Source of the DNA: Escherichia coli | GTDB taxonomy: Bacteria > Pseudomonadota > Gammaproteobacteria > Enterobacterales > Enterobacteriaceae | Length of the DNA: 64,000 nt | Strand: one strand, 5' to 3' | Assembly (NCBI RefSeq): GCF_003334305.1 | Contig: NZ_QOWS01000009.1 | Shown here: piece by piece, positions 1,908 to 6,904 of the stretch | How positions within the stretch are numbered: position 1 is the first letter of the stretch | Layout of the letters: every line of letters starts with the position of its first letter | Translations under genes and position numbers: made by a program | Notes under the pieces: model-generated | Told to the model about the DNA's origin: nothing | Seen by the model: the letters and a program-made list of their open reading frames with translations, nothing else | The model's database searches: none

Positions 1908-2498
1908 ATGATCACCGTTGCCCTTATAGACGATCACCTCATCGTCCGCTCCGGCTTTGCGCAGCTGCTGGGGCTGGAACCTGATTTGCAGGTAGTTGCC
2001 GAGTTTGGTTCGGGGCGCGAGGCGCTGGCGGGGCTGCCGGGGCGCGGTGTGCAGGTGTGTATTTGCGATATCTCCATGCCCGATATCTCCGGTCTGGAAC
2101 TGCTAAGCCAGCTGCCGAAAGGTATGGCGACAATAATGCTCTCTGTTCATGACAGTCCGGCGCTGGTTGAGCAGGCGCTTAACGCGGGGGCGCGCGGCTT
2201 TCTCTCCAAACGCTGTAGCCCTGACGAACTGATTGCGGCGGTGCATACGGTTGCTACGGGCGGCTGTTATCTGACGCCGGATATTGCCATTAAACTGGCA
2301 TCCGGTCGTCAGGACCCGCTGACCAAACGTGAACGCCAGGTGGCGGAAAAACTGGCGCAAGGAATGGCGGTGAAAGAGATTGCCGCCGAACTGGGCTTGT
2401 CACCGAAAACGGTACACGTCCATCGCGCCAATCTGATGGAAAAACTGGGCGTCAGTAACGACGTAGAACTGGCGCGCCGCATGTTTGATGGCTGGTGA
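1908..2498 (+). CDS. uhpA: Response regulator UhpA (LuxR/NarL family)
   Basis: 196-aa frame from internal ATG ([17 protein letters not shown]...) of ORF 1845..2498; receiver plus HTH domains; AGGA SD upstream. Confidence 0.93.
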
Positions 2499-4000
2499 TG
2501 AAGACGTTGTTCTCCCGCTTAATTACCGTTATTGCCTGCTTTTTTATCTTCTCTGCCGCATGGTTTTGCCTGTGGAGTATCAGCCTGCACCTGGTTGAGC
2601 GCCCTGATATGGCGGTGCTGTTATTTCCGTTTGGTCTGCGGCTAGGGCTAATGCTGCAATGCCCGCGCGGATACTGGCCCGTATTGCTGGGTGCGGAATG
2701 GCTGCTAATTTACTGGCTAACGCAGGCGGTCGGTTTAACCCATTTTCCGTTATTGATGATCGGTAGTTTACTGACGTTACTGCCCGTAGCGCTGATCTCG
2801 CGCTATCGCCATCAGCGTGACTGGCGCACCTTGCTGTTACAGGGGGCGGCGTTAACGGCGGCGGCGTTGTTGCAGTCGCTGCCCTGGCTTTGGCACGGCA
2901 AAGAGTCGTGGAATGCGCTGTTGCTGACTTTAACTGGCGGCCTGACGCTGGCCCCGATATGTCTGGTGTTCTGGCACTATCTCGCCAATAACACCTGGCT
3001 GCCGCTCGGCCCGTCACTGGTTTCTCAACCGATCAACTGGCGCGGGCGGCATCTGGTCTGGTACTTGCTGTTGTTTGTTATTAGTCTCTGGCTCCAGTTG
3101 GGATTGCCGGACGAACTGTCGCGCTTTACGCCATTCTGCCTGGCGCTGCCGATTATCGCGCTGGCCTGGCACTACGGTTGGCAAGGGGCGCTGATCGCGA
3201 CGTTGATGAACGCCATCGCGCTGATCGCCAGTCAAACCTGGCGCGATCATCCGGTGGATTTATTGCTCTCGTTGCTGGTGCAAAGTCTGACAGGGTTGTT
3301 ACTGGGCGCTGGCATCCAGCGGTTGCGTGAACTTAACCAGTCGCTGCAAAAGGAACTGGCGCGCAATCAGCATCTGGCTGAACGGTTGCTGGAAACCGAA
3401 GAGAGCGTGCGTCGTGATGTGGCGCGTGAGCTGCATGATGATATCGGTCAGACCATCACTGCTATTCGTACTCAGGCGGGCATTGTTCAGCGGCTGGCGG
3501 CAGATAACGCCAGCGTGAAGCAGAGCGGGCAGCTCATCGAACAACTATCGCTGGGCGTTTACGACGCGGTGCGCCGTTTGTTGGGTCGGTTACGTCCGCG
3601 CCAGTTGGATGATCTCACCCTGGAGCAGGCCATCCGCTCACTGATGCGGGAAATGGAGCTGGAAGGGCGCGGTATTGTCAGCCATCTCGAATGGCGAATC
3701 GATGAATCAGCATTAAGTGAAAACCAGCGCGTGACGCTGTTTCGTGTCTGCCAGGAAGGGCTGAACAACATTGTGAAACATGCTGATGCCAGCGCGGTCA
3801 CGCTGCAAGGCTGGCAGCAGGATGAACGGTTGATGCTGGTTATTGAAGACGATGGCAGCGGTTTGCCGCCGGGTTCCGGGCAACAAGGTTTTGGCCTCAC
3901 CGGAATGCGCGAGCGCGTAACGGCGCTGGGTGGCACATTACACATTTCCTGTCTGCACGGCACGCGTGTCAGCGTTTCTCTACCTCAACGCTATGTCTAA
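2498..4000 (+). CDS. uhpB: Sensor histidine kinase UhpB
   Basis: 500 aa from ATG overlapping the uhpA stop (ATGA); polytopic N-terminus plus HisKA_3/HATPase C-terminus. Confidence 0.95.
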
Positions 4001-4009
4001 GGTTTGATG

Positions 4010-5329
4010 ATGTTGCCGTTTCTGAAAGCGCCTGCCGATGCGCCATTAATGACTGATAAATATGAAATTGATGCCCGCTATCGCTACTGGCGTCGGCATA
4101 TTCTGCTGACCATCTGGCTGGGTTATGCGCTGTTTTACTTCACGCGGAAAAGTTTTAACGCCGCCGTACCAGAAATCCTTGCTAACGGCGTGCTCAGCCG
4201 TAGCGATATCGGCCTGTTAGCGACCCTGTTTTACATTACCTATGGCGTGTCGAAGTTTGTCTCCGGCATTGTCAGCGATCGCTCAAATGCCCGTTATTTT
4301 ATGGGGATAGGGCTTATCGCCACGGGCATTATCAACATTCTGTTTGGCTTCTCGACGTCGCTATGGGCGTTTGCCGTGCTCTGGGTGCTGAACGCCTTTT
4401 TCCAGGGCTGGGGTTCACCGGTGTGTGCGCGTCTGTTAACGGCCTGGTATTCACGTACCGAGCGCGGCGGTTGGTGGGCATTATGGAACACGGCGCATAA
4501 CGTCGGCGGCGCACTCATTCCCATTGTGATGGCAGCGGCTGCACTACATTACGGCTGGCGTGCCGGGATGATGATTGCTGGTTGTATGGCGATCGTCGTG
4601 GGAATTTTTCTCTGCTGGCGGCTGCGCGATCGCCCGCAGGCGTTAGGTTTACCGGCGGTCGGTGAATGGCGACACGACGCGCTGGAGATAGCTCAACAAC
4701 AAGAAGGGGCAGGGCTGACGCGTAAAGAGATCCTCACCAAATATGTGTTGCTGAATCCGTATATCTGGCTGCTTTCGTTTTGCTATGTGCTGGTCTATGT
4801 GGTCCGGGCGGCAATCAACGACTGGGGCAATTTGTATATGTCCGAGACGCTGGGCGTCGATCTGGTCACGGCGAATACGGCAGTGACGATGTTTGAACTG
4901 GGCGGATTTATCGGTGCGCTGGTAGCCGGTTGGGGCTCGGACAAATTGTTTAACGGCAACCGTGGGCCGATGAATTTGATTTTCGCCGCCGGAATTTTGC
5001 TTTCAGTCGGCTCGCTGTGGCTGATGCCATTTGCCAGCTACGTGATGCAGGCAACCTGCTTCTTCACCATTGGTTTTTTTGTCTTTGGCCCGCAGATGTT
5101 AATCGGCATGGCGGCGGCAGAGTGTTCCCACAAAGAGGCGGCAGGGGCGGCGACGGGGTTTGTCGGCTTGTTTGCTTATCTGGGGGCGTCGCTTGCTGGT
5201 TGGCCGCTGGCGAAAGTACTCGATACCTGGCACTGGAGCGGATTTTTTGTGGTTATCTCTATCGCCGCCGGGATTTCCGCACTGCTGTTACTGCCCTTTT
5301 TGAACGCCCAGGCACCGCGCGAAGCGTGA
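4010..5329 (+). CDS. uhpC: MFS membrane sensor UhpC (glucose-6-phosphate receptor)
   Basis: 439 aa from second ATG (MLPFLKAPADAPL...); organophosphate:Pi antiporter family; ORF track gives 4004..5329 from an upstream TTG. Confidence 0.93.
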   Translation: MLPFLKAPADAPLMTDKYEIDARYRYWRRHILLTIWLGYALFYFTRKSFNAAVPEILANGVLSRSDIGLLATLFYITYGVSKFVSGIVSDRSNARYFMGIGLIATGIINILFGFSTSLWAFAVLWVLNAFFQGWGSPVCARLLTAWYSRTERGGWWALWNTAHNVGGALIPIVMAAAALHYGWRAGMMIAGCMAIVVGIFLCWRLRDRPQALGLPAVGEWRHDALEIAQQQEGAGLTRKEILTKYVLLNPYIWLLSFCYVLVYVVRAAINDWGNLYMSETLGVDLVTANTAVTMFELGGFIGALVAGWGSDKLFNGNRGPMNLIFAAGILLSVGSLWLMPFASYVMQATCFFTIGFFVFGPQMLIGMAAAECSHKEAAGAATGFVGLFAYLGASLAGWPLAKVLDTWHWSGFFVVISIAAGISALLLLPFLNAQAPREA

Positions 5330-5349
5330 TGCATCTCACCTTTTCACTT

Positions 5350-5440
5350 CATATCCGGCAAAACTAAGAAATTTTCCAGGTTTTGCCTGGACGCTATCTC
5401 AGGCCTGATTTGCTGCTGATTTTTACAATGCATGCCTCAC
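5350..5440 (+). promoter_or_regulatory. uhpT promoter region with candidate UhpA-binding dyad and -10 element
   Basis: Perfect dyad TCCAGG-N5-CCTGGA at 5375..5391 and TACAAT at 5424..5429, about 38 nt upstream of the uhpT ATG; assignment to UhpA binding is from known uhpT regulation, not proven here. Confidence 0.45.
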
Positions 5441-5466
5441 GCAGGTATTCATTTCAGGAGTAACCC

Positions 5467-6858
5467 ATGCTGGCTTTCTTAAACCAGGTTCGCAAGCCGA
5501 CCCTGGACCTTCCGCTCGAAGTGCGGCGCAAAATGTGGTTCAAACCGTTCATGCAATCCTACCTGGTGGTCTTTATCGGCTACCTGACGATGTACCTGAT
5601 TCGCAAGAACTTTAACATCGCGCAGAACGACATGATTTCGACCTACGGGTTGAGCATGACGCAACTGGGGATGATCGGCCTGGGTTTCTCCATCACTTAT
5701 GGCGTGGGTAAAACGCTGGTTTCCTACTACGCCGACGGCAAAAACACCAAACAATTCCTGCCGTTTATGCTTATCCTGTCTGCCATTTGTATGCTGGGCT
5801 TCAGTGCCAGTATGGGCAGCGGCTCGGTTAGCCTGTTCCTGATGATTGCCTTCTACGCCTTAAGCGGCTTTTTCCAGAGTACCGGCGGTTCGTGCAGTTA
5901 CTCCACCATCACCAAATGGACGCCGCGTCGTAAACGCGGGACATTCCTCGGTTTCTGGAATATTTCTCACAACCTTGGCGGTGCAGGCGCAGCAGGTGTG
6001 GCGCTGTTCGGGGCAAATTACCTGTTCGATGGCCATGTCATCGGCATGTTTATCTTCCCGTCGATTATCGCGCTGATTGTCGGTTTTATCGGCCTGCGTT
6101 ACGGTAGCGACTCCCCGGAATCTTATGGCCTCGGCAAAGCTGAAGAACTGTTCGGCGAGGAGATCAGCGAAGAGGACAAAGAGACAGAATCTACCGATAT
6201 GACCAAGTGGCAGATCTTTGTTGAGTATGTGCTGAAAAACAAAGTGATCTGGCTGCTGTGCTTCGCCAACATTTTCCTCTATGTGGTACGTATTGGTATC
6301 GACCAGTGGTCAACCGTATACGCGTTCCAGGAACTGAAACTCTCTAAAGCGGTGGCGATTCAGGGCTTTACGCTGTTTGAAGCTGGTGCGCTGGTCGGTA
6401 CGCTGCTGTGGGGCTGGCTCTCTGACCTGGCGAACGGTCGCCGTGGCCTGGTGGCCTGCATCGCGCTGGCGTTGATTATCGCCACGCTCGGTGTGTATCA
6501 ACATGCCAGCAACGAATATATCTATCTGGCTTCTCTCTTTGCGTTGGGTTTCCTGGTCTTTGGCCCGCAATTGTTGATTGGTGTGGCTGCTGTTGGCTTT
6601 GTACCTAAAAAAGCGATTGGCGCTGCCGATGGTATTAAAGGCACCTTTGCTTACCTGATTGGTGACAGCTTTGCCAAGTTAGGTCTGGGAATGATTGCCG
6701 ATGGGACGCCGGTATTCGGCCTTACCGGCTGGGCAGGCACATTCGCCGCACTTGATATCGCCGCGATTGGTTGTATCTGCCTGATGGCGATAGTGGCGGT
6801 GATGGAAGAACGCAAAATCCGCCGCGAGAAAAAAATTCAGCAGTTGACAGTGGCATAA
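5467..6858 (+). CDS. uhpT: Hexose-6-phosphate:phosphate antiporter UhpT
   Basis: 463-aa MFS protein, [33 protein letters not shown]...; SD AGGAG upstream. Confidence 0.97.
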
Positions 6859-6876
6859 ACGTAACTGGTGACTTTT

Positions 6877-6904
6877 GCCCGGCATGACGCCGGGCTTTTT
6901 TATT
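6877..6904. terminator. Bidirectional rho-independent terminator between convergent uhpT and ade
   Basis: GCCCGGC-atgac-GCCGGGC hairpin followed by TTTTTTATT; A-run on the other strand. Confidence 0.7.

What the first reader, a model, noticed from the sequence alone, without database searches (positions are those of the whole stretch)
5375..5391. Perfect dyad TCCAGG-N5-CCTGGA in the uhpT promoter
A 6-bp perfect inverted repeat is centred about 55 bp upstream of the predicted uhpT transcription start (-10 TACAAT at 5424..5429), in the region where UhpA is known to activate uhpT. It is a plausible UhpA recognition element.
Basis: partly seen in the sequence, partly recalled or inferred. Interest (0 to 1): 0.15.

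Follow-up and report, generated by a model that had tools for sequence, protein, structure and literature searches.

The report
Junction of two UhpA binding sites
The perfect dyad is real and lies inside the long-studied UhpA activator region of the E. coli uhpT promoter, but it most likely marks the junction between two neighbouring UhpA dimer sites and is not a recognition element of its own, so it is ordinary and already known.

Summary
TCCAGG-TTTTG-CCTGGA is at 5375-5391 exactly as described. It sits in the uhpC-uhpT spacer of E. coli, and the promoter is base-for-base identical to K-12. As a bare dyad it is not beyond chance: about 0.36 perfect 6-bp dyads are expected in this spacer. What gives it meaning is conservation. 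In 78 unique orthologous promoters a block from -76 to -32 is conserved between near-neutral flanks, and both arms lie inside it.

Perfect symmetry occurs in only 10 of 78 promoters; most read TCCCGG…CCTGGA. The dominant symmetry axis is at -64 (11 of 12 pairs in Aeromonas).

This fits the published picture of a strong upstream and a weak downstream UhpA site. It also fits the related regulator BvgA, which binds as head-to-head dimers 22 bp apart.

Verdict: observation confirmed, interpretation partly supported, already known, low interest. The primary footprint papers could not be retrieved, so the S/W coordinates rest on my memory.

The parts
1908..2498 (+). uhpA, a NarL/FixJ-family response regulator and the activator that acts on the promoter
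   Evidence: NCBIfam equivalog NF007685 UhpA, 441 bits against a cut-off of 258. Coordinates mapped from the K-12 annotation. Nearest solved structures are DesR, NarL, DevR, VraR and RcsB.
2498..4000 (+). uhpB sensor kinase
   Evidence: NF008649 UhpB, 899 bits; K-12 annotation.
4010..5329 (+). uhpC glucose-6-phosphate receptor. Its TGA stop codon (5327-5329) lies inside the CRP half-site.
   Evidence: NF008661 UhpC, 864 bits.
5325..5340 (.). CRP (CAP) site core CGTGA-N6-TCACC, centre 5332.5 = -103.5
   Evidence: 14/16 match to TGTGA-N6-TCACA. GTGA and TCAC are nearly invariant in orthologues. PMC5352689 places CRP at -103.
5362..5382 (.). Inferred strong (S) UhpA dimer site AACTAAGAA-ATT-TTCCAGGTT, axis 5372 = -64. 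Half-site a is 5363-5369 and half-site b is 5375-5381. In E. coli the site is extended by the perfect 8-bp arms GGCAAAAC (5357-5364) and GTTTTGCC (5380-5387).
   Evidence: Strongest symmetry axis across 78 promoters: mean 7.7/12, with 11/12 in Aeromonas and 9/12 in Dickeya. Arm complementarity is 6/9 in E. coli and 9/9 in Aeromonas. The core resembles the BvgA optimal site.
5375..5391 (.). It consists of inner half-site b (end of the S site) plus inner half-site c (start of the W site), arranged tail-to-tail.
   Evidence: sequence; 6/6 in 10 of 78 promoters and 5/6 in 57 of 78; arm information content is 1.0-1.9 bits, and spacer positions 5383-5385 have 0.5-0.95 bits; these are half-sites b and c of the best + - + - arrangement.
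5385..5403 (.). Inferred weak (W) UhpA dimer site GCCTGGA-CGCTA-TCTCAGG, axis 5394 = -42. Half-site c is 5385-5391 and half-site d is 5397-5403. The site abuts the position where a -35 element would lie.
   Evidence: Conserved columns run from -51 to -32. Weak symmetry axis at -41.5/-42. Register search. There is no usable -35 hexamer, 0-2/6 matches.
5424..5429 (+). -10 hexamer TACAAT, preceded by the conserved GCTGATTTTT at 5416-5423
   Evidence: Invariant in 78/78 promoters.
5436..5436 (+). Inferred uhpT transcription start (+/-1 nt)
   Evidence: Inferred: 7 nt downstream of the -10, which also places the CRP site at -103.5 as in the literature. Not measured here.
5467..6858 (+). uhpT hexose-6-phosphate:phosphate antiporter
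   Evidence: NF007107 UhpT, 832 bits; annotated in E. coli genomes.

Best explanation
The dyad lies within the UhpA-dependent activator region of the classical E. coli uhpT promoter. The region holds four UhpA half-sites of the form N-C-Y-N-R-G-A, roughly one per helical turn, oriented -> <- -> <-. In E. coli they are ACTAAGA at -73..-67, TCCAGGT at -61..-55, GCCTGGA at -51..-45 and TCTCAGG at -39..-33.

The outer-plus-inner pairs form two head-to-head dimer sites. One is a strong site with its axis at -64. The other is a weak site with its axis at -42, 22 bp downstream and abutting the missing -35.

Phosphorylated UhpA fills the strong site first and then, cooperatively, the weak site. From there it recruits RNA polymerase to a promoter that has a good -10 but no -35. 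CRP at -103.5 adds stimulation.

Its axis at -53 is exactly midway between the two dimer axes. Its perfect symmetry in E. coli is incidental, because the central base of the left CCNGG is free to vary.

Shown here: the position, the conservation, the symmetry axes, the four-fold motif and the absence of a -35. Inferred: dimer occupancy, the order of filling and the contacts with polymerase. These come from literature summaries, the BvgA analogy and my memory of the Kadner-lab footprints.
For: 1. The locus is E. coli uhpABC-uhpT. The promoter is identical to K-12 from the CRP site to the ATG.
2. An ungapped alignment anchored on the -10, of 80 orthologous promoters from Escherichia to Aeromonas, keeps the CRP, activator-block and -10 spacing. 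Columns -76..-32 carry mostly 1.5-2.0 bits. Flanks at -31..-22 and -92..-77 carry about 0.3-0.9 bits.
3. Symmetry profile: the -64 axis averages 7.7/12 (Aeromonas 11, Dickeya 9), the -53 axis 6.5/12 (Aeromonas 5) and the -41.5 axis 5.2/12.
4. Unbiased search over registers and orientations: the best arrangement is + - + - at -73/-61/-51/-39, scoring 24.5 against a mean of 10.3 (sd 2.3). Dimer axes are at -64 and -42.
5. The perfect -53 dyad occurs in only 10/78 promoters. Column 5378 reads A9/C60/T9, 0.99 bit.
6. In the distant promoters the -64 dyad stays 9/9 in Aeromonas and 7/9 in Dickeya, while the -53 dyad is 4/6 in both. By my reading of the Brenneria sequence after a 1-bp shift, it is 7/9 against about 2/6 there.
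7. Literature that could be retrieved: UhpA binds an upstream strong site and an adjacent downstream weak site, and phosphorylation stimulates binding (PMC4790336). CRP is centred at -103, about 30 bp upstream of the UhpA site, and UhpA is essential (PMC5352689).
8. Family analogy: BvgA~P binds as head-to-head dimers 22 bp apart, one monomer per turn, with the last dimer abutting the -35. Its optimal site is TAAGAAATTTCCTA, compared with uhpT TAAGAAAtTTTCCAG (PMC7250471).
9. There is no -35 element.
Against: - In most enterics the -53 dyad is locally more symmetric (5-6 of 6) than the -64 dyad (6 of 9). Symmetry alone therefore does not favour the -64 pairing within Enterobacteriaceae.
- The orientation search separates patterns only modestly: + - + - scores 24.5, + + - - 23.5 and + - - - 23.1.
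- The evidence from deep divergence rests on three promoters.
- The primary footprint and affinity-cleavage papers (Dahl 1997; Olekhnovich & Kadner 2002) could not be retrieved. The S = -80..-50 and W = -50..-32 coordinates are from my memory.
- The transcription start is inferred, not measured.
Confidence: 0.78

Rival explanations
1. The dyad is itself a UhpA dimer operator centred at -53. A UhpA dimer would bind TCCAGG/CCTGGA directly, either as the main site or as a third central dimer overlapping the others.
For: Both arms are strongly conserved. The -53 axis is the second-strongest symmetry axis and reaches 8/12 in Dickeya. Most enteric promoters are 5/6 or 6/6 symmetric. The complementary middle pair is slightly more frequent than independence predicts, 14 observed against about 10.8 expected of 77, counted by hand from the table.
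Against: Perfect symmetry is not maintained (10/78). The spacer and the central base of the left arm are among the least conserved columns of the block. The arms have the reverse polarity to the -64 site and to the BvgA-type head-to-head arrangement. The reported strong site is the upstream one, whereas a -53 dimer would straddle the strong/weak boundary. The slight excess of complementary pairs is not corrected for phylogeny.
Confidence: 0.12
2. The dyad acts as a nucleic-acid hairpin. Either it is a 3' stem-loop or terminator for uhpABC read-through on the + strand, or it is a terminator for antisense transcription on the - strand.
For: The consensus scan calls a terminator-like hairpin on the - strand at 5391..5375 (6 pairs, tail AAATTTCTTA). 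The + strand RNA fold pairs CCGGCAAAAC with GUUUUGCCUGG around it.
Against: There is no U-tract after the stem on the + strand. The - strand call is antisense to both genes, and 0.3 such calls are expected by chance in this stretch. The fold z-score is -1.6, with 13/200 shuffles folding as well. Most genera carry a C-T mismatch in the middle of the 6-bp stem. No Rfam family was searched for or matched at this position.
Confidence: 0.03
3. The dyad is a chance symmetry with no role of its own. The arms would be conserved for a reason other than UhpA contact, for example alpha-CTD contacts, DNA bending or another factor such as FNR.
For: Generic 6-bp dyads are common, with 0.36 expected in the spacer. 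FNR shifts a uhpT upstream fragment in gel assays (PMC5352689).
Against: The same paper found no FNR footprint on uhpT. No FNR- or CRP-like sequence overlaps the dyad; the nearest FNR-like matches, with 3 mismatches, are at -103.5 and -81.5. The arms match the motif repeated in the flanking half-sites.
Confidence: 0.05

Closest known systems
UhpA-binding region of the E. coli K-12 uhpT promoter (Kadner laboratory: Merkel 1992/1995, Dahl 1997, Olekhnovich 1999, Chen & Kadner 2000, Olekhnovich & Kadner 2002)
   Same: It is the same DNA. The window is identical to K-12 MG1655 from the CRP site to the uhpT ATG. The layout is CRP at -103.5, then an upstream strong and an adjacent downstream weak UhpA site, a -10 and no -35.
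   Different: Nothing differs in sequence. It shares only the left arm with that repeat.
BvgA-activated promoters of Bordetella (Pfha, Pptx)
   Same: The activator is of the NarL/FixJ family and binds as head-to-head dimers. Dimer centres are 22 bp apart, with one monomer per helical turn. A strong upstream site nucleates weaker downstream ones, and the last dimer abuts the -35. The optimal site TAAGAAATTTCCTA is nearly the uhpT -64 core. That paper also reports that an inverted pair of heptads picked by eye was not the true binding unit (PMC7250471).
   Different: The regulator and organism are different. uhpT appears to have two dimers, not three to six. The uhpT heptads are separated by one extra base. 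UhpA occupancy was not measured here.
NarL 7-2-7 heptamer pairs (TACYYMT-N2-AKRRGTA)
   Same: Same protein family (NarL model hit at 7e-33; NarL structure hit). Recognition of inverted heptamers by a dimer is from established knowledge, not tested here.
   Different: No NarL-type 7-2-7 sequence occurs in the promoter. The only match with 5 or fewer mismatches is at +18.5. The UhpA half-site motif (N-C-Y-N-R-G-A) differs.

Membership tests
UhpA-bound activator region of the uhpT promoter | Lies immediately upstream of uhpT, in a locus that encodes uhpA, uhpB and uhpC | tested here: met
   NCBIfam equivalogs for all four genes, E. coli annotation. The dyad lies 46 bp after the uhpC stop and 76 bp before the uhpT ATG.
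UhpA-bound activator region of the uhpT promoter | Lies between the CRP site (-103.5) and the -10, within the stretch reported to bind UhpA | tested here: met
   The dyad spans -61..-45 relative to the inferred +1 at 5436. The CRP-like site is at -103.5. PMC5352689 puts the UhpA site about 30 bp downstream of CRP. The -80..-32 limits are from my memory of the primary papers.
UhpA-bound activator region of the uhpT promoter | Protected by, or cleaved by, UhpA in vitro | not testable with these tools
   Needs DNase I footprints or affinity cleavage. The primary papers were not retrievable.
UhpA-bound activator region of the uhpT promoter | Conserved in orthologous promoters relative to neutral flanks | tested here: met
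   Arm columns carry 0.99-1.90 bits, against 0.25-0.9 bits at -31..-22 (78 unique promoters).
Head-to-head dimer operator of a NarL/FixJ-family regulator (the dyad as a stand-alone recognition unit) | The two half-sites face each other in the polarity of the family's characterised sites (TAAGAAA|TTTCCTA type) | tested here: not met
The -64 pair CTAAGAA…TTCCAGG has the family polarity.
Head-to-head dimer operator of a NarL/FixJ-family regulator (the dyad as a stand-alone recognition unit) | Dyad symmetry maintained by selection across orthologues | tested here: not met
   6/6 in 10 of 78 promoters. The central pair (5378/5388) is non-complementary in 63 of 77. The dyad is 4/6 in Aeromonas and Dickeya, where the -64 dyad is 9/9 and 7/9.
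Head-to-head dimer operator of a NarL/FixJ-family regulator (the dyad as a stand-alone recognition unit) | Half-site spacing matches that of the regulator's established dimer site | tested here: inconclusive
   Centre-to-centre distances are 12, 10 and 12 bp for a-b, b-c and c-d. b-c differs from the other two, but the register of a 7-mer is uncertain by +/-1.
Rho-independent terminator | G+C-rich stem followed by a U-tract on the transcribed strand | tested here: not met
   No T-run follows the stem on the + strand. The only call is on the - strand, antisense to both genes, at near-chance frequency. The fold z-score is -1.6.

The most novel reading that the evidence does not exclude
The back-to-back inner pair (axis -53) might be a selected element in its own right, not a by-product. 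It could be the docking geometry that lets the proximal monomer of the strong dimer touch the distal monomer of the weak dimer, setting the cooperativity of glucose-6-phosphate induction. Alternatively it could be an alternative register for a single UhpA dimer at intermediate phosphorylation. A further speculative twist applies to E. coli only: both arms are CCWGG Dcm methylation sites, so cytosine methylation could modulate UhpA binding.
Probability: 0.08. Interest if true: 0.25.

Novelty: already known. Interest (0 to 1): 0.06.

Why it matters
uhpT expression controls hexose-phosphate uptake and fosfomycin entry, so its promoter has clinical relevance. Its architecture has been dissected experimentally since the 1990s, however. 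The only value added here is a cross-genus view. The whole -76..-32 block and its spacing to the CRP site and the -10 are rigidly conserved. The half-site motif recurs four times. The eye-catching perfect dyad in E. coli is a junction artefact, not the recognition unit. This is a useful caution for motif-spotting in promoters with arrays of response-regulator dimers.

Tried and rejected
- Retrieval of the primary papers failed by DOI, PMID and PMC id. These were Merkel 1992 and 1995, Dahl 1997, Chen & Kadner 2000, and Olekhnovich & Kadner 2002.
- Seven full-text searches and several secondary papers gave only qualitative statements, with no footprint coordinates.
- Terminator or hairpin reading: rejected.
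- FNR, CRP, NarL 7-2-7 or RcsB-box identity for the dyad: no match overlaps it. An RcsB-box-like match with 4 mismatches lies at the -64 core, not at the dyad.
- Covariation between the central bases of the two arms: 14 complementary against about 10.8 expected of 77. This was counted by hand from the table and is not corrected for phylogeny, so I do not treat it as evidence.
- Hairpin seen by eye at -92..-77 in other genera: RNAalifold predicts nothing, and pair counting shows no significant covariation.
- Rfam scan of two loci with a longer 5' leader: no hits.

Full report
**Observation.** The window is Escherichia coli. The 5200-5600 stretch is 100% identical to many E. coli chromosomes and is annotated uhpC/uhpT. 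The four ORFs upstream and downstream match the NCBIfam models for UhpA, UhpB, UhpC and UhpT far above their cut-offs. The dyad is exactly as described: TCCAGG 5375-5380, TTTTG 5381-5385, CCTGGA 5386-5391. No further complementary bases flank it. TACAAT is at 5424-5429.

**Chance.** The exact word with up to one mismatch occurs once in the window, against 0.06 expected. That test is post hoc. Perfect 6-bp dyads with spacers of 0-10 occur 250 times in the 64 kb, 19 of them with N5. About 0.36 are expected in the 137-bp uhpC-uhpT spacer. The dyad is not significant by itself.

**Numbering.** A CRP-like site CGTGA-N6-TCACC (14/16) is centred at 5332.5. PMC5352689 states that CRP binds an inverted repeat centred at -103, about 30 bp upstream of the UhpA site. 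With the -10 at 5424-5429 this puts +1 at 5436 (+/-1). The dyad centre is then at -53 and the dyad spans -61..-45. No -35 element exists: 0-2 of 6 matches at spacers of 16-18, and no sigma-70 consensus call in the region. This is as expected for an activator-dependent promoter. The promoter is identical to K-12 MG1655 from the CRP site to the ATG, so the published K-12 work applies to this sequence. Across E. coli, 5013 of 5417 genomes are at least 99% identical over 5350-5440.

**Comparative analysis.** Eighty orthologous uhpT loci were fetched. They come from Escherichia, Salmonella, Citrobacter, Klebsiella, Raoultella, Kluyvera, Enterobacter, Lelliottia, Leclercia, Cedecea, Buttiauxella, Pantoea, Rouxiella, Brenneria, Dickeya and one Aeromonas.

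When anchored on the -10, nearly all align without gaps from the CRP site to the -10, so spacing is tightly constrained. Among 78 unique promoters, columns -76..-32 carry mostly 1.5-2.0 bits. The flanks at -31..-22 and -92..-77 carry about 0.3-0.9 bits, which gives an internal neutral control.

Both arms of the dyad lie inside the conserved block:
- Left arm: 1.90, 1.90, 1.71, 0.99, 1.83, 1.56 bits.
- Right arm: 1.73, 1.83, 1.37, 1.90, 1.90, 1.61 bits.
- The middle base of the left CCNGG (5378) reads A9/C60/T9.
- Spacer positions 5383-5385 are among the least conserved columns of the block.

Perfect 6/6 symmetry is found in only 10 of 78 promoters: E. coli, E. albertii, Buttiauxella, and two with CCCGG/CCGGG. 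Fifty-seven are 5/6, typically TCCCGG…CCTGGA.

**Where the symmetry lies.** A symmetry profile counting complementary pairs within +/-12 bp of every possible axis, averaged over all promoters, shows three axes inside the block:
- -64: mean 7.7/12; E. coli 9, Aeromonas 11, Dickeya 9.
- -53: mean 6.5/12; E. coli 7, Aeromonas 5, Dickeya 8.
- -41.5/-42: mean about 5.

In Aeromonas the -64 element is a perfect palindrome, AGAACTAGGAA-AAA-TTCCTAGTTCT. In E. coli it is AACTAAGAA-ATT-TTCCAGGTT, extended by the perfect 8-bp arms GGCAAAAC (5357-5364) and GTTTTGCC (5380-5387).

An unbiased search over all registers and orientations for four similar 7-mers gives as its best solution + - + - at -73/-61/-51/-39. 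In E. coli these are ACTAAGA, ACCTGGA(rc), GCCTGGA and CCTGAGA(rc), giving the motif N-C-Y-N-R-G-A. The score is 24.5, against a mean of 10.3 (sd 2.3).

**Literature.** The primary footprinting and affinity-cleavage papers are not in the held library. Accessible summaries say the following:
- CRP lies upstream of them, and UhpA is essential for activation (PMC5352689).

From memory, not verified here: the strong region is -80..-50 and contains an inverted repeat centred at -64, and the weak region is -50..-32. Both agree with the conserved block and axes found here.

For the homologous regulator BvgA, PMC7250471 documents head-to-head dimers spaced 22 bp apart, one monomer per helical turn, with the last dimer abutting the -35. 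Its optimal site is TAAGAAATTTCCTA, nearly the uhpT -64 core TAAGAAAtTTTCCAG. That paper also notes that a pair of inverted heptads long cited at Pptx was a misassignment made by eye. UhpA itself has no solved structure. Its nearest solved relatives are DesR, NarL, DevR, VraR and RcsB.

**Mechanism (inferred).** UhpA~P dimers occupy the strong -64 site and then, cooperatively, the weak -42 site next to the absent -35. There they recruit RNA polymerase, and CRP at -103.5 enhances this. Each arm is very probably a UhpA contact, but the dyad is not the dimer recognition unit.

**Rivals.**
- A stand-alone UhpA operator at -53 cannot be excluded without the footprints. Within enterics this dyad is actually more symmetric than the -64 one. 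It is disfavoured by the unmaintained symmetry, the reversed half-site polarity, the decay of the dyad in distant promoters, and the reported strong-upstream/weak-downstream order.
- A hairpin or terminator role is rejected. There is no U-tract on the + strand, the only call is a near-chance antisense one, and the fold z-score is -1.6.
- No FNR, CRP or NarL-type site overlaps the dyad.

**Verdict.** The feature is part of a promoter whose architecture is already known, so interest is low.

Noticed in passing
window 5357-5364 and 5380-5387: A perfect 8-bp inverted repeat, GGCAAAAC…GTTTTGCC (15-bp spacer), is centred at 5372 = -64. The outer arms are fully present in Escherichia and Salmonella and only partly in other genera.
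   Followed up: partly
L005-L077, about 90-77 bp upstream of the inferred start (equivalent to window 5344-5359): Most non-Escherichia genera carry a GC hairpin flanked by T- and A-runs, for example TTTTTGCCCC-GAGT-GGGGCAAAA, between the CRP site and the UhpA block. E. coli lacks it. Pair counting showed 73% of cells paired against 70% in shuffles and no significant covariation. It may be a remnant uhpABC 3' stem-loop, or nothing.
   Followed up: yes
window 5327-5329 within 5325-5340: The uhpC stop codon TGA is part of the upstream CRP half-site (GCGTGA). The end of the coding sequence and the CRP site of the next promoter therefore overlap, and GAAGCGTGA is conserved across genera.
   Followed up: partly
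window 5376-5380 and 5386-5390: Both arms contain CCWGG (CCAGG and CCTGG), the Dcm cytosine-methylation motif. The right-arm CCTGG is conserved in most genera. The left arm is CCCGG in most genera and so is not a Dcm site there.
   Followed up: no
window 5416-5423: GCTGATTTTT immediately upstream of the -10 is almost as conserved as the -10 itself (1.1-2.0 bits), although there is no TG extended -10. Its function was not examined.
   Followed up: no
L001 2399-2500; also L002, L034, L035: Four loci (Escherichia sp. E1V33, E. whittamii, Raoultella terrigena, Enterobacter sp. 10-1) have 101-114 nt between the -10 and the uhpT ATG, compared with 31-64 nt elsewhere. The extra leader segment is similar in all four (…CATTC…TTTCCC-AAATAATTCA-GTTGCAGGAA…). 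No Rfam family matches.
   Followed up: partly
window about 6639-6904 (+ strand): K-12 annotation lists a small RNA, UhpU (b4829), derived from the 3' end of uhpT and running into the convergent adeD stop region (coordinates mapped by offset from K-12).
   Followed up: no
L052 (Brenneria) and L043 (Citrobacter amalonaticus): These are the only visible spacing changes in the promoter. In Brenneria the UhpA block is shifted by 1 bp relative to the -10 (its symmetry axis is at -65). In L043 there is a 1-bp shift between the CRP site and the UhpA block. Everywhere else the spacing is invariant.
   Followed up: no
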